Shown here: in pieces, positions 32,926-40,146 of the stretch | How positions within the stretch are numbered: the first letter of the stretch is position 1 | Layout of the letters: each line of letters opens with the position of its first letter | NCBI GenBank assembly: GCA_048625195.1 | Contig: JBMCRE010000002.1 | Span: 1,747-65,746 of the forward strand | Reading direction: 5' to 3' | DNA length: 64,000 nt | From: Nanobdellota archaeon | Lineage (GTDB): Archaea; Nanobdellota; Nanobdellia; Woesearchaeales; UBA583 | Made by a program: the position numbers and the translations under genes | Notes under the pieces: model-generated | What the model saw: the letters and a program-made list of their open reading frames with translations, nothing else | What the model was told of the DNA's origin: nothing | Databases searched by the model: none

Positions 32926-33897
32926 TTATTCTAACTTTTTGTCATGATTTTTATATATTTTGATAAATTCTATTAATTTTTTTACATTATTTATTTGGTT
33001 AATTTTTTGTCGTAAGTTTGAACCATTTATTATATTTTTTGTTAAGTATGATAAATTTGATTTTATAGTTGATATATTTAAATCATACAAATGAGCATAT
33101 TTGAGATATTCTAAAATTATTGCTTTCTTTTCTAAAAATGTTATTCCTGATTTGTTTTGATTTTTAATATCAATATTATTTTTTAATATATTAAAAATTT
33201 GAGGATTTTCCAATGCAGCTCTTCCTATCATTATCCCATCTGGTTTTGTTTTATTGATATTATTAAATGAATTAATATCACATACATCCCCATTTGCAAT
33301 AATTTGTATATTTGGAAAATATGTTTTTAGCTCTTTAATTTCTTTATAAGTTGCTGGTTTATTATAAGATTCTCTTAAAACTCTACCATGGATATATATT
33401 TTATTTATTCCTATTTTTTCTAATATTGAAACTACTTTTTTTATGATTATTTTATCTCTATCAATTCCTATTCTAGTTTTAATAGATGGAATTAAGTTAT
33501 ACTTATCACAACTTTTTTTTAATAATGTTGCAATTATTTCTATTTTTGATAAATCTTTCAATATTCCTGCACCATTATTATTTTTGCATAAACTTGATTG
33601 TGGACATCCCATATTATAGTTAATTTCTTTTATTTTGGGATTAATTTTTATTATTAATTGTATTGCTTCTTCTATATCATTTATGTTTTCTTGAGAAATT
33701 ATTTGAATAATTGTTTTGTCTTCAAGAAAGTATTGAATGTTTGATTTTTTTATCTCACAAATTGATCCTTTTAGTAATTTTTCAGTTCTTATCATTTCAG
33801 AAAATACAAAATCTGCTCCATGATTAAAACATAATTCTCTAAATGCTAAATTTCCTAGAGTATTTAGAGGAGCTAAATATAATTTTGGGTGTTGCAT
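32926..33897 (-). CDS. dus: tRNA-dihydrouridine synthase
   Basis: LAPLNTLGNLAFRELCFNHGADFVFSEMI, NYNMGCPQ, IHGR and GRAAL motifs of the Dus family. Confidence 0.85.
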   Translation of the reverse strand: MQHPKLYLAPLNTLGNLAFRELCFNHGADFVFSEMIRTEKLLKGSICEIKKSNIQYFLEDKTIIQIISQENINDIEEAIQLIIKINPKIKEINYNMGCPQSSLCKNNNGAGILKDLSKIEIIATLLKKSCDKYNLIPSIKTRIGIDRDKIIIKKVVSILEKIGINKIYIHGRVLRESYNKPATYKEIKELKTYFPNIQIIANGDVCDINSFNNINKTKPDGIMIGRAALENPQIFNILKNNIDIKNQNKSGITFLEKKAIILEYLKYAHLYDLNISTIKSNLSYLTKNIINGSNLRQKINQINNVKKLIEFIKIYKNHDKKLE

Positions 33898-33992
33898 ATA
33901 TATAATAAAACATGATTGATTTAATAAATTATTTTATTTCATAATAATATTTTTTGTTCTAATCAAAAATCTTAAATTGTTACGACATAAGC

Positions 33993-34000
33993 TTTATAAA
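33993..34000 (+). promoter_or_regulatory. TATA box (TTTATAAA) for the ligase gene
   Basis: The first T lies 32 nt upstream of the ATG at 34025. The box lies inside the TTG-initiated ORF-track extension (33977), which argues for 34025 as the true start. Confidence 0.5.
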
Positions 34001-34024
34001 AAAGGATATTTTTTAAATAATAAA

Positions 34025-35446
34025 ATGAAATTTATTGATGTTTGTCAGATTTTAGAAAAATTAGAAAAGAATAGTCAAAGATTAAAAAAGATATTAATTT
34101 TAAGAGACTTCTTAATTACAAACAAAAGAGAGAGTAAAATTATTTTTGATATGATTGCTGGAAATTATCAAAGGAAAATTGATAAAAAAACTCTTGGAAT
34201 TTCTATCAAAACTATTTTTAGTTCTGTAACTTTAATTAGTCGAGTTTCACAATTAGAGATTGAAAAGAGATTTAATAAAACTGGTGATATCGGAGAAGTC
34301 ATTGCACAAATATTAGAGAAAAATAAACAAAACTATTTATTTACAAAAGATTTAATGATAGAGGATATTGAAAAAAGTTTTCAAAGTATATCTAAAAATA
34401 TAGGAAGTAATTCAAATAAGAAAAAAAAAGAGATAATAAGTAATTTATTTTTACTTGCAAAATCTAAATTAGAATATAAGTTTATTACTAGATTATTAAT
34501 AGATGATTTAAGAGTTGGTGTTTCTGAAGGTTCATTAAAAGAATCTGTTGTAAATTCTTATTTTCCAAATATTGTAGGAATTCATTTAATGTGTGAGAAT
34601 TGTAATTATATTAATTTGAATTTAAAAAAATGTTTTAATTGTAATAAAGATATAGATTTGAAAAGACAAGAAGAAATTATTTCAAAAAAATATAATATTG
34701 TTGAATTAGAAACTCCTAACTATCAGACTAGTTTGCTTGATTATGATATTAAATATTTTGTTAATCAATTAGAATATGCAATTAGAAGAGATAGAGAAAA
34801 GTATTTTATAAAAACACAAAATCCTAGAGAATTATATAATAAATTTTTAGAACTATTTGAAAAAAAATATAATTTAATTAATTCTTTTGAAAAAATTTTA
34901 ACTCAATTAGATGAAAATTTAAATAATGTTTTAAATTTTGAAATAAAATTAGGATTACCTATAAAATCAATGCTTGGTAGTAGATCTGATTCTATAGAAG
35001 ATAGTTTTAAAACAACATTAAAACCATCTATTGTTGATTTTAAATATGATGGATTAAGAACACAAATACATAATAAAAAAGGAGAAGTAAATATTTTTAC
35101 AAGAAATTTAGAAGATATTACTAAACAATTTCCTGAAATTATTGATTTTATAAAGAATAATTTTAGTGATATCGAATTTGTAATTGATGCTGAATGTGTT
35201 GGATATGATTTTAAAAATAATACTTTTTTACCTTTTCAGACACTATCAAAAAGAATTTTAACTAAAAATTTAAGTGATGTGAGTCATATAAATGTTGTAG
35301 TTAAATGTTTTGATTTATTATATTTAAATGGTAAAACACTAATAGATGAAAATTATAAAAATAGAAGAGAAATTTTAGAAGAATTATTTTTAAATAGAAC
35401 AATTATTGAGAATAATAATTTTAATGTTGAAGAGCTTGAGAGATGA
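34025..35446 (+). CDS. lig: ATP-dependent DNA ligase, N-terminal fragment (DNA-binding domain plus partial adenylation domain; truncated or split)
   Basis: Motif I VDFKYDGLRTQIH and motif III FVIDAECVGYD, then FDLLYLNGKTLIDENYKNRREIL. The ORF ends before motifs IV-VI and the OB fold. The stop codon lies inside the 67-bp repeat. A CxxC-x9-CxxC insertion (CENCNYINLNLKKCFNC) sits between the DBD and the adenylation domain. Confidence 0.8.
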   Translation: MKFIDVCQILEKLEKNSQRLKKILILRDFLITNKRESKIIFDMIAGNYQRKIDKKTLGISIKTIFSSVTLISRVSQLEIEKRFNKTGDIGEVIAQILEKNKQNYLFTKDLMIEDIEKSFQSISKNIGSNSNKKKKEIISNLFLLAKSKLEYKFITRLLIDDLRVGVSEGSLKESVVNSYFPNIVGIHLMCENCNYINLNLKKCFNCNKDIDLKRQEEIISKKYNIVELETPNYQTSLLDYDIKYFVNQLEYAIRRDREKYFIKTQNPRELYNKFLELFEKKYNLINSFEKILTQLDENLNNVLNFEIKLGLPIKSMLGSRSDSIEDSFKTTLKPSIVDFKYDGLRTQIHNKKGEVNIFTRNLEDITKQFPEIIDFIKNNFSDIEFVIDAECVGYDFKNNTFLPFQTLSKRILTKNLSDVSHINVVVKCFDLLYLNGKTLIDENYKNRREILEELFLNRTIIENNNFNVEELER

Positions 35447-35505
35447 AGGGATTAAGAGCTCAAGAGATTAAGGGCTCAAGAGATTAAGGGCTCAAGGGAT
35501 TAAGA
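35439..35505 (+). repeat. 67-bp direct repeat, left copy
   Basis: Identical to 37491-37557 except for one position (35481 a versus 37533 g). Aligned by hand. Confidence 0.9.
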
Positions 35506-35535
35506 GCTCTGGCTCTTTAGCACTTTGGCTCTCAA
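35448..35535 (+). repeat. GC-rich tandem array with 16-nt (8+8) period, left
   Basis: Units in register: gggattaagagctcaa, gagattaagggctcaa, gagattaagggctcaa, gggattaagagctctg, gctctttagcactttg, then a partial gctctcaa. Confidence 0.8.
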
Positions 35536-35586
35536 TTATTTTTGATTTTTTAGAATTTATTTTGTATAAATAATAAAAAATTAGTT

Positions 35587-37428
35587 TTATGGACAATTAC
35601 CCCAATCGGGTTGTAATGCTGTTTGTCCTTCAAAACCTGAATCAGTATCAAAACTAGAAGGCTTTGAACTAATATGAGGAACACACCAGAAACTTATATC
35701 CTGATTAAAAGAAGTAGCATAATAAAACATTCCCTCCATATCTGTTACACTACTTGTATCTGTAAAGTTTAAAGACTGATTAAAAGACTCAGCAAAAAAA
35801 AACATATAACTCATATCTGTTACGCTACTTGTATTAAAATTTAAAGGTTGATTAAAAGAACTAGTATAAGGATCCTCATTACTAAACATATAACTCATAT
35901 CTGTTACACTACTTGTATCAAAATTTAAAGATTGATTAAAAGAAGTAGCATAATAAAACATCTCACTCATATCTGTTACACTACTTGTATCAAAATTTAA
36001 AGGTTGATTAAAAGAATAAGCTTGTTGAAACATCGTACTCATATCTGTTACACTACTTGTATCAAAATTTAAAGATTGATTAAAAGAAGTAGCAATATAA
36101 AACATCTCACTCATATCTGTTACACTACTTGTATCAAAATTATCCAAAGGTTGATTAAAAGAATAAGCAGAGTAAAACATTCCACTCATATCTGTTACAC
36201 TACTTGTGTCAAAATTTAAAGGTTGATTAAAAGAATTAGCATCTCCAAATATATAACTCATATTTGTCACACTACTTGTATCAAAATTTAAAGATTGATT
36301 AAAAGAAGTAGCCAAAAAGAACATATAACTCATATCTGTTACACTACTTGTATCAAAATTATCCAAAGGTTGATTAAAAGAATTAGCACCTGAAAACATA
36401 GTCCTCATATTTGTTACACTACTTGTATCCCAATGTAAAATATTAGGGTTTATATTCGAATTGTAGAATACTCCACCATACCAACTATCATCTAAATTCA
36501 TTGTTGTTACAAGCGAAGTACAAGCAGTTTCATAAAAGTTAACATCATCTGATTCAATCTTATCAGATAAATCTTGGTTAGAAACAGCTGTATAGGTTAC
36601 ACCATCTAAAGTTCCAGTATCACCAAAACTTGCTGAACTACAATTAACAACTCCATTAGATAGTAATTCGAAATTTCCATCTGTTTCAATCACAGTAGGT
36701 GTTGAAACTTCTTCTTCTTTTGTCTTAACACTCCATATAGTTGAGTAATCTCCTAAAGTTAGAGTTGCTTGCTTTGTAGTATTATAATTACTTGAAGAAT
36801 TTAATTTTATTGTTAAATTGTCTCCTGAATTCATAGTAGCACTTGTTTTCCAACTACTACTATTAACATTTAATTGCGGATTTCCATCTCCTGTTATTGA
36901 AACACTTAATGGACCTTCGTAATTTGTTGGTGTTAAAGTGTTTGATTCAATTAATGTATCTAATTCTACATCTATTTCATTATTAAAATTAAAATTATCT
37001 GGCATAGTGTCTTGGCCTTCTTCACTACTACTTCCATCATTATAAATAGATATAGTTTTTGTAAATAAGCCTTTATTTGTAACAACAATAACTTCTGCTG
37101 TTGATTGATGTGTTTCTACGCACCCAGATATATTAATTGTTTGCATTCCTTTACCATAACTTTTATCAATAAGACAAGAAACATCGTTTAATTTTATTTC
37201 TGTAATAGTTAAATTATTATAACCATTTTTAAAATATAAATTATTGTCTAAAACTGTATCGATTCTAGTATTCATAACATCTATTGAACTGTCTTGCTCA
37301 ACTTTAGAAAATAAACCACTAGAATATGTTTGAAACCAACCCTGAAATCCTACTACTGCTACAACTAATAATAAAGCAGTTGCAACTACTGGAGATATAG
37401 TTTTTTTGTTTATTAAATATTTTAACAT
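35587..37428 (-). CDS. pilin-signal surface protein with BspA-like/DUF285 repeats
   Basis: Class III signal-like N-terminus (KKTISPVVATALLLVVAVVGF). Ten tandem ~23-25-aa repeats FDTSSVTDMSxMFxxAxSFNQxLN follow. The C-terminal ...FNQDISFWCV...PDWGNCP is typical of DUF285-type proteins. Confidence 0.8.
   Translation of the reverse strand: MLKYLINKKTISPVVATALLLVVAVVGFQGWFQTYSSGLFSKVEQDSSIDVMNTRIDTVLDNNLYFKNGYNNLTITEIKLNDVSCLIDKSYGKGMQTINISGCVETHQSTAEVIVVTNKGLFTKTISIYNDGSSSEEGQDTMPDNFNFNNEIDVELDTLIESNTLTPTNYEGPLSVSITGDGNPQLNVNSSSWKTSATMNSGDNLTIKLNSSSNYNTTKQATLTLGDYSTIWSVKTKEEEVSTPTVIETDGNFELLSNGVVNCSSASFGDTGTLDGVTYTAVSNQDLSDKIESDDVNFYETACTSLVTTMNLDDSWYGGVFYNSNINPNILHWDTSSVTNMRTMFSGANSFNQPLDNFDTSSVTDMSYMFFLATSFNQSLNFDTSSVTNMSYIFGDANSFNQPLNFDTSSVTDMSGMFYSAYSFNQPLDNFDTSSVTDMSEMFYIATSFNQSLNFDTSSVTDMSTMFQQAYSFNQPLNFDTSSVTDMSEMFYYATSFNQSLNFDTSSVTDMSYMFSNEDPYTSSFNQPLNFNTSSVTDMSYMFFFAESFNQSLNFTDTSSVTDMEGMFYYATSFNQDISFWCVPHISSKPSSFDTDSGFEGQTALQPDWGNCP
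35686..36435 (-). repeat. intragenic tandem repeats (~69-75 nt units, ten copies) encoding the DUF285-type repeats
   Basis: Near-identical DNA blocks are visible, for example atatctgttacactacttgtatcaaaatttaaag recurring. They correspond to aa 332-581 of the protein. Confidence 0.85.
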
Positions 37429-37490
37429 AATAATTATATGATTAAAACTCTTTTTTGTTTATGTTTTAACTTGAAAGTGGTTAGTACTGT

Positions 37491-37557
37491 AGAGATGAAG
37501 GGATTAAGAGCTCAAGAGATTAAGGGCTCAAGGGATTAAGGGCTCAAGGGATTAAGA
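37491..37557 (+). repeat. 67-bp direct repeat, right copy
   Basis: See the left copy at 35439-35505. Confidence 0.9.
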
Positions 37558-37633
37558 ACCAAAGAAGATTAGGCACTTCAGCACTTAGGCACTTCAGCAC
37601 TTAGGCACTTCAGCACTTAGGCACTTCAGCTCT
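37500..37633 (+). repeat. GC-rich tandem array with 16-nt (8+8) period, right
   Basis: Four gRgattaagRgctcaa-type units are followed, without loss of register, by gaagattaggcacttc and three perfect agcacttaggcacttc units. The array ends 4 nt from the rps27ae stop codon. Confidence 0.85.
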
Positions 37634-37636
37634 AAA

Positions 37637-37828
37637 TTAATTTTTATTAGTTATATATTCAACATAACTGCATTTTCCACAATGGTAACGATCAGGTTTT
37701 GAGTATAAACCTAAAAATATTCCTTTTCCACATTGAGGACATTCTTTTCTTGTTTTTTTACCATCTTTATAAAATTGATATTTTTTTGATGGTGTAGATG
37801 ATTTTGCTTTTTCTTTACTTTTTCCCAT
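37637..37828 (-). CDS. rps27ae: 30S ribosomal protein S27ae (eS31)
   Basis: Zinc ribbon CPQCGKG...HCGKCSYVEY. Starts 2 nt after the rpl11 stop. Confidence 0.85.
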   Translation of the reverse strand: MGKSKEKAKSSTPSKKYQFYKDGKKTRKECPQCGKGIFLGLYSKPDRYHCGKCSYVEYITNKN

Positions 37829-37830
37829 TT

Positions 37831-38313
37831 TTATTCTTGTAATTGTGAGTCATATTTTCCAGATTTTACATCTGCAATAAATACTCTTGGCAGTTTTCCA
37901 TCAACTTTTATACCTAGAGAATAACATGTTCCTGCTATTTCTCTTACTGCTGTTTTTAAATCGTTTGCAAGTAAAGCATCAAACTTCATTCTTGCAATTT
38001 TTTTAATTTGTTCTACAGTTAAGTCTCCAACATAAGTTTGATTTGGAGTTGCACTTCCTTTTTTTATATTTAATTCAGATTTAATTAATTGTGATGCAGG
38101 AGGTGTTCCTATTTTAATTTCGTAGTCTTTAGTTTTTGTATCCACTGTTACAACTACAGGAACTTTCATTCCTTTAAAATCTGCTGTTTTCTTATTTATG
38201 TCTGCTACAACTTGTCCTATATTTACTTTTAGAGGACCCAATGCAGGACCTAAAGGTGGTGCTGCTGTTGCTTTTCCACCTTCAATTAAAATTTCTATTT
38301 TTTCTTTTGCCAT
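37831..38313 (-). CDS. rpl11: 50S ribosomal protein L11 (uL11)
   Basis: GGKATAAPPLGPALGP and the overall uL11 pattern. Confidence 0.95.
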   Translation of the reverse strand: MAKEKIEILIEGGKATAAPPLGPALGPLKVNIGQVVADINKKTADFKGMKVPVVVTVDTKTKDYEIKIGTPPASQLIKSELNIKKGSATPNQTYVGDLTVEQIKKIARMKFDALLANDLKTAVREIAGTCYSLGIKVDGKLPRVFIADVKSGKYDSQLQE

Positions 38314-38502
38314 TTGTCAAACATTTTGTATGCAACCTTTTTTAAAAGGATAAATGGAGTTATTAATATAACGCCTAACTTATATGAATTATATTGTATT
38401 TATAAGTTTTGCAGTTTATTTTAATAAAAAAAAATCATTTTATACTTAACAAACTAAAATAAATTTTTTAAAAATTTAAAAAAAATTCAAATAATTATAA
38501 TT

Positions 38503-39288
38503 TTATTGAATTCTAAATGCATTTAATAGACTTCTTAAAAAAGAATTTTCTTTTTCTAATTCTTCAAGTTTTCTTTTATATTCACCAGTATGAACTCTTT
38601 TTGCTAAATGATGATATTGTTGAGCTGTCTTTGATTTTGGCCTTATATGCATTATAGGCTTTTTATTGTACAGAGATAATCTCATATATTTGTCATCTTC
38701 AATAACTGAAGTAATTGGAGTTTCTAATAGACCTTCAATTGCTCTAAATCCTAAATCAAAATTGTCTCTTCTAACTCTATTTAAAATAACCCCTTTAACT
38801 GGAATACCTATTTCTTTTGCAAGAGTAACAATTTTAAAAGCATCTGTTACTGCAGGTAATTCTGGATTTGTAACTACTAAAATTTCATCTGCATTTTTTA
38901 AAATAGAAATTGATTCATTTCCTAATCCTGCTGCACTGTCTACAATAACATAATCACATAATTCTTTTAGATCATCAAAGATCTTTTTTAATGTTCTTGA
39001 ATTAATATGTGCAAAGCTTCTAATTGATAATGAACCAGGTACTAATTTAAACCCTAATGGATGTAAATATATTGAATCAGTCAATACTGCTTCTCCTTGT
39101 AATACATCATTTAATGTAGTTGGAAACTTTGTAAGTCCTAAATGCAATCCCACATTTGGAGTAGTCAAGTTCCCATCAACAAGTATTACGTTTTTTCCAT
39201 GCTTTGATAAAGCAGTTGCTAAATTTACGCTTGTGGTGGTTTTACCAACACCACCTTTCCCAGAAGATATAACTATTAATTTTCCCAT
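38503..39288 (-). CDS. minD: MinD/ParA-family P-loop ATPase
   Basis: Deviant Walker A SGKGGVGKTT and a DSAAG Walker B region. Confidence 0.85.
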   Translation of the reverse strand: MGKLIVISSGKGGVGKTTTSVNLATALSKHGKNVILVDGNLTTPNVGLHLGLTKFPTTLNDVLQGEAVLTDSIYLHPLGFKLVPGSLSIRSFAHINSRTLKKIFDDLKELCDYVIVDSAAGLGNESISILKNADEILVVTNPELPAVTDAFKIVTLAKEIGIPVKGVILNRVRRDNFDLGFRAIEGLLETPITSVIEDDKYMRLSLYNKKPIMHIRPKSKTAQQYHHLAKRVHTGEYKRKLEELEKENSFLRSLLNAFRIQ

Positions 39289-39343
39289 ATTTTATTTAAT
39301 ATTATTGCTTATTTAAATTATCTTATCACCACGGATAAGTAAT

Positions 39344-39799
39344 TTATGTTAATTGAATTGTATTTAATCTGTCAATTACATCTTTTAAAACTGAATAAAA
39401 ATCTAATAATTTCATTATATTTACAATGTATTCTTCGCCATCAATATATGATACCATACATAAGTTTTTTCTATACTCTCCAATACATTCAAATTCAGAT
39501 AATAATAGTCTTTTTAATAAAAAATAATCTGATAAATCAATACTAATTCCTCTACTTAAAAATCCATCTTTTAAGATCTGAATTTTATCATGTACAGTTA
39601 TTGGTATATCATTATCTTCTACAAATGCTCGATATGCTACTCCAAAAAATTGCTCATAACCACTAACAATAGTTTCCATAACTCTTCTTAACATTTCAGT
39701 TGTTTTTGTAAATTTACATGATACATATATCATATGTTCAATTGAGTATAATTGTCTTTTTAAATCTCTAATGTCATTTATTGTTAAGTCGTCCATCAT
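39344..39799 (-). CDS. hypothetical protein
   Basis: 151-codon ORF packed between nac and minD on the same strand. No motif recognised. Confidence 0.5.
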   Translation of the reverse strand: MMDDLTINDIRDLKRQLYSIEHMIYVSCKFTKTTEMLRRVMETIVSGYEQFFGVAYRAFVEDNDIPITVHDKIQILKDGFLSRGISIDLSDYFLLKRLLLSEFECIGEYRKNLCMVSYIDGEEYIVNIMKLLDFYSVLKDVIDRLNTIQLT

Positions 39800-39801
39800 T
39801 T

Positions 39802-40146
39802 TTATTCGTTTTGTGTTAATTCTATAATTGCTTGTGCTATATCACCTTGAGATTTTTCCAAAGCTAATTTTGCAGTACTGGCATCTACTTTTGCTTGAGT
39901 AGAAACTAAATCTATATCATCTTGAGAAATTTTTATATTAGGCTTGTTCTCTTTTTCTTCATATTGTCCAGAAATTTGAAATGTTGTTTGCCCCTGCATT
40001 GTTATTTTTTGAACTTCTGGATTGTTGAAAATAATTTTTGCATCTTTAGTCTCTATAATAACTTTAGTTGCATCAATGTCCACCTGAGACATCCCCATTT
40101 GTCTCATCATAGCTTTCATTTGTCGAGGATTTACTCCCGGCATCAT
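39802..40146 (-). CDS. nac: nascent polypeptide-associated complex protein (NAC + UBA domains)
   Basis: MMPGVNPRQMKAMMRQMGM..., a NAC beta-barrel, and a C-terminal UBA-like segment (AKLALEKSQGDIAQAIIEL). The start is set at the ATG overlapping the Sec61-beta stop (ATGA). The ORF track extends 10 codons further. Confidence 0.85.
   Translation of the reverse strand: MMPGVNPRQMKAMMRQMGMSQVDIDATKVIIETKDAKIIFNNPEVQKITMQGQTTFQISGQYEEKENKPNIKISQDDIDLVSTQAKVDASTAKLALEKSQGDIAQAIIELTQNE

What the first reader, a model, noticed from the sequence alone, without database searches (positions are those of the whole stretch)
37500..37633. Phase-locked 16-nt (8+8) GC-rich tandem arrays in otherwise AT-rich DNA
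Seen: the array has 8.4 consecutive 16-nt units in unbroken register. The motif changes mid-array from gRgattaagRgctcaa to agcacttaggcacttc, and each unit is two 8-mers of the form gNNNttNa or gcacttNN. A second array at 35448-35535 has the same period and related units (gctctttagcactttg). A period of 16 is not a multiple of 3 and every frame hits stops, so the arrays are not coding. There are no unique spacers, so they are not CRISPR arrays. On the minus strand the right array lies between rps27ae and the adhesin gene. That position would suit an iterated protein-binding platform, an insulator or terminator, or a slippage-prone contingency tract. I do not recognise the motif.
Basis: seen in the sequence. 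Interest (0 to 1): 0.55.

Follow-up and report, generated by a model that had tools for sequence, protein, structure and literature searches.

The report
Stop-codon-anchored octamer repeat arrays, archaeal
The two GC-rich arrays are real and belong to a genome-wide family of 8-base tandem repeats that start exactly at the stop codons of genes in a tiny AT-rich Woesearchaeota archaeon; this is an archaeal case of a little-understood repeat class known from bacteria, and its function is still unproven.

Summary
The basic period is 8 nt (unit AAGNGMTN); the 16-nt unit is a local higher-order period. The "motif change" in the right array is a switch to the inverted complement, so the element is an imperfect foldback.

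The two arrays belong to a family of at least 22 loci (30 arms, 340 units) in this 838-kb genome. The five-unit pattern was found in none of the roughly 420 other genomes of the phylum that I searched.

Nineteen of 29 arms begin within 25 nt of a gene end. All 19 are stop codons on the arm's own strand (random placement gives 2.4), and the stop is usually the TAA or TGA of the first unit. Arms facing gene starts stay at least 38 nt away (most 60-70 nt).

Arms of one locus fit each other no better than arms of other loci, so the hairpin is not a tuned structure. I tested and rejected a classical terminator, Shine-Dalgarno mimicry, CRISPR, coding sequence, REP/RAYT elements and truncation of the DNA ligase.

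This is a new archaeal member of the gene-end hepta/octamer repeat class (Xanthomonas, Nostoc, Geobacter). This scan has met the same design before in many bacteria and in one other Woesearchaeote. Its most likely role is a transcribed boundary element at gene ends, with a neutral satellite a close rival.

The parts
35430..35509 (+). Left array, purine-rich arm: 10 octamer units of the AAGRG type. The first units overlap the last codons and the TGA stop of the DNA ligase gene.
35510..35537 (-). Left array, short inverted arm of about 3 degenerate units read on the minus strand. It lies 42-50 nt beyond the stop of the DUF285 gene.
35444..35446 (+). TGA stop codon of the DNA ligase gene, in phase as the T-G-A of an array unit.
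37490..37569 (+). Right array, arm of AAGRG-type units: 8 good units plus 2 degenerate linker units. It points away from the DUF285 start codon, about 61 nt away.
37571..37634 (-). Right array, arm of 8 AAGTGC-type units read on the minus strand. It begins 2 nt after the rps27ae stop codon, on that gene's sense strand.
37637..37639 (-). TAA stop codon of rps27ae, the end of the rpl11-rps27ae gene pair.
35587..37428 (-). Gene for a DUF285-repeat surface protein with a pilin-type signal, bracketed by the two arrays. It is context, not part of the repeat family.
34025..35446 (+). ATP-dependent DNA ligase gene, short 473-aa form that is normal for this clade. Its native C-terminus abuts the left array.

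Best explanation
The two arrays belong to a lineage-specific, genome-wide family of tandem octamer repeats. The unit is AAGNGMTN, with consensus AAGAGCTT.

Shown:
- Each arm starts at, or a few bases after, the stop codon of a gene, with its purine-rich strand on that gene's sense strand.
- Where two arms meet head to head in one spacer they make an imperfect foldback. The right array of the window is such a pair.
- Arms grow and shrink in blocks of whole units. Each locus has its own higher-order period, arm lengths run from 4 to 48 units, and contigs break inside arrays.

Inferred mechanism of change: replication slippage and unequal exchange, with occasional exchange between loci.

Inferred function: the arrays are transcribed as the start of the 3' untranslated region. 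There the GC-rich, purine-rich, self-pairing tract marks the end of a transcription unit in a 24%-GC genome. It would slow or stop read-through RNA polymerase, or shield the 3' end of the mRNA from decay. The hairpin would be a consequence of a nearly palindromic unit, not a tuned structure.

I put membership of the repeat class at about 0.9 and the boundary function at about 0.4. The confidence given is for the whole statement.
For: - Family: at least 22 loci; 30 arms and 340 units, against 0 arms in the reversed-genome control; 131 five-unit pattern matches against 0 for the reversed pattern.
- Anchoring: 19 of 29 arms begin within 25 nt of a gene end, and all 19 are stop codons on the arm's strand. 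Random intergenic placement gives a mean of 2.4 and a maximum of 9 in 2000 trials. A twentieth arm overlaps its ORF by 49 nt and encodes a 16-aa tail.
- Phase: in most junctions the stop codon is the T[A/G]A of the first unit. G directly after a stop occurs in only 4% of ordinary genes.
- Distance from starts: arms that face gene starts lie 38-237 nt away, most of them 60-70 nt, on the antisense strand.
- Orientation: all 8 two-armed loci are purine arm first on both strands, and all 6 internal one-armed arrays are in sense orientation after a stop.
- Strand bias: arms exaggerate that of sense strands, with purine 0.67 against 0.57 and GC skew 0.45 against 0.19.
- Structure potential: two-armed loci fold with z from -0.6 to -7.0, and one-armed arrays with z from -1.7 to -8.8. 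The right array folds at -40.5 and -42.5 kcal/mol.
- Dynamics: higher-order periods of 16 to 104 nt, and 6 of 46 contig ends lie inside arrays.
- Same positional rule in bacteria: Xanthomonas and Nostoc heptamer repeats (PMC4692102) and paired opposite-strand octamer sites in Geobacter (PMC2700814).
Against: - There are no expression data, so neither transcription of the arrays nor any effect on read-through is shown.
- Only about 20 of roughly 800 genes carry an array. None of the roughly 420 other genomes of the phylum that I searched has the pattern. The element is therefore dispensable and recent, which suits a neutral or selfish satellite equally well.
- Arms of one locus fit each other no better than arms of other loci, and tend to fit worse. 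By folding energy the figures are -0.485 against -0.708 kcal/nt, and the own partner ranks 7th or 8th of 8 in five loci. By ungapped pairing they are 0.68 against 0.72, P = 0.04, or P = 0.07 with G-U pairs allowed.
- T5 tracts are not enriched after arrays (14 of 38 exits, against 39% within 30 nt of ordinary stops), and no consensus terminator was found.
- One locus lies between divergent genes, where no stop codon is nearby.
Confidence: 0.45

Rival explanations
1. Neutral or selfish satellite. The octamer arrays are a recent burst of slippage-prone repeat DNA with no cellular role. They abut stop codons, and stop short of promoters, only because that is the one stretch of a compact genome where expansion is tolerated. 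Their fixed orientation would come from how they arise, for example transcription-associated slippage that favours a purine-rich non-template strand.
For: The pattern is absent from about 420 other genomes of the phylum. Only about 2.5% of genes carry an array. Lengths range from 4 to 48 units, each locus has its own higher-order repeat, and contigs break inside arrays. The arms are not co-adapted. No terminator features accompany the arrays. The distances fit a picture of filling free space: 0 nt at stops, and 38 nt or more before starts.
Against: Filling free space does not by itself explain the strict sense-strand polarity (19 of 19 anchored arms, 6 of 6 internal one-armed arrays) or the in-phase stop codons. 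Nor does it explain why the same rule holds in bacteria with unrelated units. Ordinary 3' flanks carry no seed motif.
Confidence: 0.32
2. Iterated protein-binding platform on double-stranded DNA. Each octamer, or the CTTAAG and AGCT palindromes it creates, would be a binding site for a DNA-binding protein, for example a nucleoid or boundary protein, and the arrays would load many copies.
For: Five positions of the unit (1, 2, 3, 5 and 7) are strongly conserved across 340 units, while positions 4, 6 and 8 vary. The Geobacter paired octamer sites were annotated as putative global-regulator binding sites. Arrays occur in both orientations around a dyad.
Against: No candidate protein was identified. 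An 8-bp spacing places successive sites on different faces of the helix. Anchoring to stop codons on the sense strand is not expected of a protein that reads duplex DNA. The family is absent from all relatives searched.
Confidence: 0.1
3. Recombination or cassette boundary. The arrays would be sites at which genes are inserted or exchanged, and the DUF285 surface-protein gene would be a cassette inserted between two copies.
For: The first 67 nt of the two window arrays are 66/67 identical, whereas other loci are at most about 84% alike. They bracket a single gene. At C3:15357 a fragment of the 3' end of an ATPase gene is nested between array pieces.
Against: No other gene flanked by two arrays was seen. 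The only other DUF285 gene (at a contig end) has no array detected beside it. No Y1 (RAYT-type) transposase is present, and no integrase was sought. Relatives are too distant to show an empty site. Exchange between repeats is expected of any dispersed repeat.
Confidence: 0.08
4. Contingency (phase-variation) tract, in which changes in unit number switch the neighbouring surface-protein gene on or off.
For: The right array lies about 57-61 nt upstream of a surface-protein gene, and tandem repeats are prone to slippage.
Against: The family sits after the stop codons of housekeeping genes, and all six frames are closed. The arm lies upstream of the likely core promoter, so changes in copy number would not alter promoter spacing. 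The analogous bacterial repeats show no link to surface genes.
Confidence: 0.02
5. Assembly or sequencing artefact.
For: Six contigs end inside arrays, so unit counts in long arrays may be wrong.
Against: Sixteen loci are internal, with unique flanks on both sides. Unit sequences and higher-order periods are specific to each locus, and arrays are in phase with native stop codons. The C-terminus of the ligase aligns with its homologues right up to the array.
Confidence: 0.02

Closest known systems
G-rich heptamer repeats of Xanthomonas (GGGAATC) and Nostoc PCC 7120 (GGGGAYT); Rehm et al. 2015, PMC4692102
   Same: Both are short tandem units of 7-8 nt, dispersed and mainly intergenic. [quoted passage not shown] Copy number varies, some occur as inverted pairs, there is no link to a gene class, and the function is unknown.
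   Different: Here the host is an archaeon with 24% GC, and the arrays are GC-rich islands. The unit is 8 nt. Units are mixed within an array and form higher-order periods. Arms are much longer, up to 48 units instead of a preferred 4. Four consecutive G3 tracts, the quadruplex hallmark of that class, occur in only a few arms, because position 4 is G in only 20% of units.
Geobacter metallireducens 'putative global regulator binding sites', classes 1-3; Aklujkar et al. 2009, PMC2700814
   Same: Both consist of tandem octa- or heptanucleotide repeats, mostly found as pairs on opposite strands at variable distance. The layout is the same head-to-head arrangement as in the right array.
   Different: The Geobacter sites have 3-5 units and unrelated sequences. 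They are bacterial, and their position relative to stop codons was not analysed in the text I read.
REP / BIME elements of enterobacteria (from my own knowledge of the field, and as listed in the introduction of PMC4692102)
   Same: Both are dispersed, extragenic, able to form hairpins, placed at gene ends and between convergent genes, and thought to stabilise upstream mRNA or punctuate operons.
   Different: REPs are single imperfect palindromes of 20-40 nt with a conserved head, mobilised by RAYT transposases. Here the arms are tandem octamers of variable number, and no Y1 transposase is present.
TAACTGA direct repeats of marine Beggiatoaceae (PMC4679880; abstract only, seen), and the tandem heptanucleotides of the cyanobacterium Calothrix PCC 7601 (cited in PMC4692102)
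   Same: Both are abundant intergenic tandem heptamers specific to a lineage, with a suspected but unproven regulatory role.
   Different: The units are different, the hosts are bacteria, and the Beggiatoaceae repeats lie mostly upstream of genes.

Membership tests
Gene-end long simple-sequence repeats (hepta/octamer arrays of the Xanthomonas, Nostoc and Geobacter type) | Head-to-tail units of 7-8 nt, at least 3-4 copies | tested here: met
   30 arms of 4-48 octamer units; period 8
Gene-end long simple-sequence repeats (hepta/octamer arrays of the Xanthomonas, Nostoc and Geobacter type) | Many copies dispersed over the genome, in non-coding DNA | tested here: met
   At least 22 loci on 13 contigs, and all six frames closed in both window arrays. 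Only the first units overlap ORF ends.
Gene-end long simple-sequence repeats (hepta/octamer arrays of the Xanthomonas, Nostoc and Geobacter type) | [quoted passage not shown] | tested here: met
   19 of 29 arms lie within 25 nt of a sense-strand stop, against 2.4 expected. Arms near starts are antisense (rule stated in PMC4692102).
Gene-end long simple-sequence repeats (hepta/octamer arrays of the Xanthomonas, Nostoc and Geobacter type) | Under-represented between divergent genes | tested here: inconclusive
   1 of 15 classifiable loci is divergent, against 19% of all spacers. The numbers are too small to decide.
Gene-end long simple-sequence repeats (hepta/octamer arrays of the Xanthomonas, Nostoc and Geobacter type) | Copy number varies between loci and between strains | tested here: inconclusive
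   Variation between loci is clear (4-48 units).
Gene-end long simple-sequence repeats (hepta/octamer arrays of the Xanthomonas, Nostoc and Geobacter type) | Often paired on opposite strands (Geobacter classes 1-3) | tested here: met
   8 two-armed loci, all with the purine arm first
Quadruplex-forming G-rich repeats (the subclass of Rehm et al.) | Four or more consecutive G3 tracts with short loops, and a preference for four units | tested here: not met
   Position 4 is G in only 69 of 340 units. A few arms, the right array among them, have four consecutive GGG tracts, but this is not a property of the family.
REP / BIME | Single 20-40 nt imperfect palindrome with a conserved head, plus a RAYT (Y1) transposase in the genome | tested here: not met
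   The arms are tandem octamers of variable number, and PF01797 is absent from the genome, which is 87% complete.
CRISPR array | Identical repeats of 24-48 nt separated by unique spacers of similar length | tested here: not met
   The units are contiguous with no spacers. I did not search for cas genes.
Intrinsic (hairpin plus T-run) terminator | Short GC-rich stem followed at once by a T-run | tested here: not met
   0 sites in the scan of 35300-37900, and T5 follows 14 of 38 array exits against a 39% background.
MITE | Copies of uniform length with terminal inverted repeats and target-site duplications | tested here: not met
   Lengths run from 70 to 471 nt and there are no conserved termini. 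I did not look for target-site duplications formally.
Known RNA families (Rfam 15) | Match to a curated covariance model | tested here: not met
   No match with E up to 1 in 33000-40000. ARAGORN found no tRNA in the region.

The most novel reading that the evidence does not exclude
The arrays are true cis-acting boundaries of transcription units. In a 24%-GC genome, T-runs are too common to carry information (39% of ordinary genes have T5 within 30 nt of the stop). A GC-rich array whose purine-rich strand is always the non-template strand for polymerases leaving a gene would make a very stable RNA-DNA hybrid or a structured nascent RNA. That would pause the Pol II-like archaeal RNA polymerase and hand it to factor-dependent termination of the aCPSF1/FttA type. 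The same 'arrays point away from genes' rule in bacteria and archaea would then reflect a shared, undescribed way of ending or insulating transcription.
Probability: 0.15. Interest if true: 0.7.

Novelty: new member of a known kind. Interest (0 to 1): 0.4.

Why it matters
Tandem 7-8-base repeats at gene ends have been seen in several bacterial groups for decades without a known function. I found no published description of them in archaea. [quoted passage not shown] That argues that the rule does not depend on bacterial terminators or ribosome-binding signals. It narrows the possible causes to something the two domains share, such as the direction of transcription, RNA-DNA hybrid stability or slippage during replication.

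In practice, these arrays break assemblies of this genome (6 of 46 contig ends), add short repeat-encoded tails to some proteins, and can make neighbouring genes look truncated when they are not.

Tried and rejected
1. Ligase truncated by the array. This was my own early reading and that of a sibling note. I rejected it: about 90 Woesearchaeota and Nanoarchaeota homologues are 420-498 aa long with the same two Pfam domains, and their C-termini align with this one.
2. Shine-Dalgarno mimicry. The units pair with the 16S 3' tail worse than shuffled units do (-3.76 against -4.88 kcal/mol), and the genome shows no Shine-Dalgarno signal.
3. Hairpin-plus-T terminator. No consensus site was found and T5 tracts are not enriched.
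4. Tuned hairpin with co-adapted arms. Own arms are no better matched than arms of other loci, and tend to be worse.
5. Amplification of a general post-stop motif. Ordinary stops are followed by A or T, and AAGNG is not enriched after them.
6. REP/RAYT elements. No Y1 transposase is present.
7. Known RNA family or tRNA. None found.
8. Coding sequence or CRISPR. All frames are closed and there are no spacers.
9. G-quadruplex as the property of the family. It applies to only a minority of arms.
10. Link to DUF285 surface genes. There are only two such genes, and the second is at a contig end.
11. Orthologous or empty sites in relatives. The pattern was found in none of 40 relatives or 400 further genomes of the phylum, the ligase neighbourhood is not syntenic, and no array follows the ligase elsewhere.
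The exact 35-mer is absent from the metagenome contigs.
13. Public hits to the degenerate motifs. These are short, homogeneous octamer arrays in unrelated and mostly GC-rich organisms and two viral contigs. They share the design but are not the same family.

Full report
**What is there**

The window is about 24% GC. It comes from contig C2 of an 838-kb, 23-contig genome that is 87% complete. Its ligase homologues are labelled Woesearchaeota or Nanoarchaeota, that is, DPANN archaea.

At 35430-35537 and 37490-37634 lie two islands of 44-45% GC. Tandem Repeats Finder reports period 16, and also period 8, for both. The degenerate A-type 16-mer occurs 14 times in the window against 0.09 expected by chance, and the B-type motif 8 times against 0.6. 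All six frames are closed. There is no Rfam match and no tRNA in the region.

The right array sits between the stop codon of rps27ae (37637-37639, minus strand) and the start of a gene for a DUF285-repeat surface protein with a pilin-type signal (35587-37428, minus strand). The left array begins at the stop codon of an ATP-dependent DNA ligase gene.

The basic unit is 8 nt, not 16. Written from its conserved core it is A-A-G-[A>T~G]-G-[C>A]-T-[T>G>A>C], with consensus AAGAGCTT. The 16-nt unit of the window arrays is a local higher-order period. Other loci have 24, 32, 40, 48, 56, 96 or 104 nt.

The "change of motif" half-way through the right array is a switch to the inverted complement. Read on the minus strand, the second half is again AAGNG-type, specifically AAGTGC. 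The two halves share one 8-nt frame. As a single strand the element folds into a long hairpin interrupted periodically: -40.5 kcal/mol with z = -2.8 on the plus strand, and -42.5 kcal/mol with z = -4.9 on the minus strand.

**A genome-wide family**

BLAST of the right array against the whole genome gives 40 matches. Merged, these make at least 22 loci on 13 contigs. A motif-based census finds 30 arms and 340 units, against no arms in the reversed genome. The five-unit pattern occurs 131 times, against 0 for the reversed pattern. The arrays total 3151 nt, or 0.38% of the genome, and 6 of the 46 contig ends lie inside them.

The family is specific to this lineage. I found no BLAST match and no five-unit pattern in 19 species of the same genus or 21 of the same order. 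I found no pattern match in 400 further genomes of the phylum, all at least 90% complete.

**The positional rule**

For each arm I asked what lies behind its 5' end on its own strand.
- Nineteen of 29 arms begin within 25 nt of a gene end, and all 19 ends are stop codons of a gene on the same strand as the arm.
- Random placement in intergenic DNA gives a mean of 2.4 and never more than 9 in 2000 trials.
- A twentieth arm overlaps its ORF by 49 nt and encodes a 16-residue tail.
- In most junctions the stop codon is the TAA or TGA that precedes AG-N-G, so it is in phase with the array. In ordinary genes G follows the stop in only 4% of cases, and AAGNG is not enriched in 3' flanks. The arrays therefore do not amplify a general signal.
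- Arms that face a gene start lie 38-237 nt from it, most of them 60-70 nt, on the antisense strand.
- All eight two-armed loci have the purine-rich arm first on both strands. All six internal one-armed arrays are in the sense orientation after a stop.

Every arm thus points away from its nearest gene. In the window, the AAGTGC arm of the right array starts 2 nt after the rps27ae stop, and the left array starts on the ligase stop.

**A reading I had to drop**

The ligase ORF lacks the OB domain and the last quarter of the adenylation domain, and no OB domain is found anywhere in the genome. At first I thought the array had cut the gene, as a sibling note on this window also proposed.

That is wrong. 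About 90 homologues from Woesearchaeota and Nanoarchaeota are 420-498 aa long with the same two domains, and their C-termini align with this one to the last residues. The array abuts a native stop codon.

**Is the hairpin the point?**

Two-armed loci fold better than shuffled sequence, with z from -0.6 to -7.0. One-armed arrays do so as well, with z from -1.7 to -8.8, because the consensus unit is nearly its own reverse complement.

I then joined each left arm to each right arm. Arms of the same locus pair worse than arms of different loci: -0.485 against -0.708 kcal per nt, with the own partner ranked 7th or 8th of 8 in five loci. A plain ungapped pair count points the same way but more weakly: 0.68 against 0.72 with P = 0.04, and P = 0.07 with G-U pairs allowed.

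In six of eight loci one arm is the AAGTG type and the other the AAGRG type. With only eight loci, I conclude no more than this: the arms are not co-adapted, and the foldback is a by-product of two inward-pointing arrays built from a near-palindromic unit.

**Other mechanisms tested**

- The units do not mimic a Shine-Dalgarno sequence, and the genome does not use one.
- T5 tracts follow 14 of 38 array exits, no more than the 39% found within 30 nt of ordinary stops. The consensus scan finds no terminator.
- There is no RAYT-type transposase.
- Position 4 is G in only 20% of units, so quadruplex potential is confined to a few arms, the right array among them.
- Arms exaggerate the strand bias of coding strands: purine 0.67 against 0.57, and GC skew 0.45 against 0.19.

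**Signs of turnover and exchange**

- Each locus has its own higher-order period.
- Arm lengths run from 4 to 48 units.
- The first 67 nt of the two window arrays are 66/67 identical, while other loci are at most about 84% alike.
- At C3:15357 a fragment of the 3' end of an ATPase gene is nested between array pieces.

**Comparison with what is known**

Rehm et al. (PMC4692102) describe GGGAATC and GGGGAYT heptamer arrays in Xanthomonas and Nostoc. [quoted passage not shown] Some overlap the stop, some occur as inverted pairs, they vary in number, most are transcribed, and their function is unknown.

Aklujkar et al. (PMC2700814) list paired, opposite-strand sites of 3-5 tandem octa- or heptanucleotides in Geobacter metallireducens.

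My scans with degenerate versions of the two arm motifs also returned more than 200 public contigs from very diverse bacteria, and two viral contigs. They carry short homogeneous octamer arrays, and at least ten of those are followed by the inverted array.

Earlier notes of this scan report the same design in many bacterial phyla and once, with 7-nt units, in another Woesearchaeote. Those are unchecked AI notes. I used them as leads to the two papers, which I then read. I found no published description for archaea.

**Verdict**

The finding is real and far from chance. It is a new archaeal member of a known but unexplained class of gene-end repeats.

My preferred mechanism is that the arrays are transcribed as the start of the 3' untranslated region and act as a GC-rich, purine-rich, self-pairing boundary of the transcription unit. 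That rests only on position and polarity, and I give it about 0.4. A neutral, recently expanded satellite is nearly as likely. A protein-binding platform, a cassette boundary and a phase-variation tract follow in that order.

Noticed in passing
window 34025-35446 (+): The ATP-dependent DNA ligase is a short form of about 473 aa. It lacks the OB-fold domain (PF04679) and the end of the adenylation domain, and carries four invariant cysteines (C-x2-C ... C-x2-C) in an insert. About 90 Woesearchaeota and Nanoarchaeota homologues share this form, and no OB-domain match exists anywhere in this genome. It is either an OB-less ligase clade or a split gene whose second part is unrecognisable.
   Followed up: partly
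window 35439-35505 and 37491-37557: The 67-nt direct repeats (66/67 identical) that bracket the DUF285 surface-protein gene are the purine-rich arms of the two arrays. They are far more alike than any other pair of loci, which suggests a recent duplication or gene conversion, possibly linked to insertion of that gene into a single ancestral array between the convergent ligase and rps27ae genes.
   Followed up: partly
G000:C3:15357-15560 compared with G000:C10:1440-1612: After the array that follows a glycosyltransferase gene on C3 comes a fragment about 46 nt long and 83% identical to the 3' end of an AAA-type ATPase gene on C10. That gene itself ends in an array. More degenerate array units follow the fragment, which looks like a trace of exchange between arrays at different loci.
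   Followed up: partly
G000:C7:41024-41494: This is the longest array, 471 nt, with arms of 48 and 10 units and a 104-nt higher-order period. The upstream ORF (C7:40033-41073) runs six units into it and so gains a 16-residue repeat-encoded tail. Several other ORFs end with 2-6 repeat-encoded residues.
   Followed up: partly
loci L033-L152 and L165-L274 (public genome, metagenome and viral contigs): Short homogeneous arrays of octamers beginning AAG-N-G occur in more than 200 contigs of very diverse bacteria. Several start right after a stop codon and are followed by the inverted array. The design is widespread well beyond this archaeon.
   Followed up: partly
whole genome G000: Genes show no Shine-Dalgarno enrichment upstream of start codons, although the 16S tail has the usual sequence ending CACCUCCU. 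TGA is the stop of 7 of 19 array-abutted genes, against 16% of other genes, as expected if array units supply the stop.
   Followed up: partly
G000:C8:39560-39692 and G000:C21:6900-7018: Two arrays at contig ends lie next to sequences that look like tRNA genes, so the arrays are not confined to the ends of protein-coding genes. I read this by eye from the flanks and did not run ARAGORN on those contigs.
   Followed up: no
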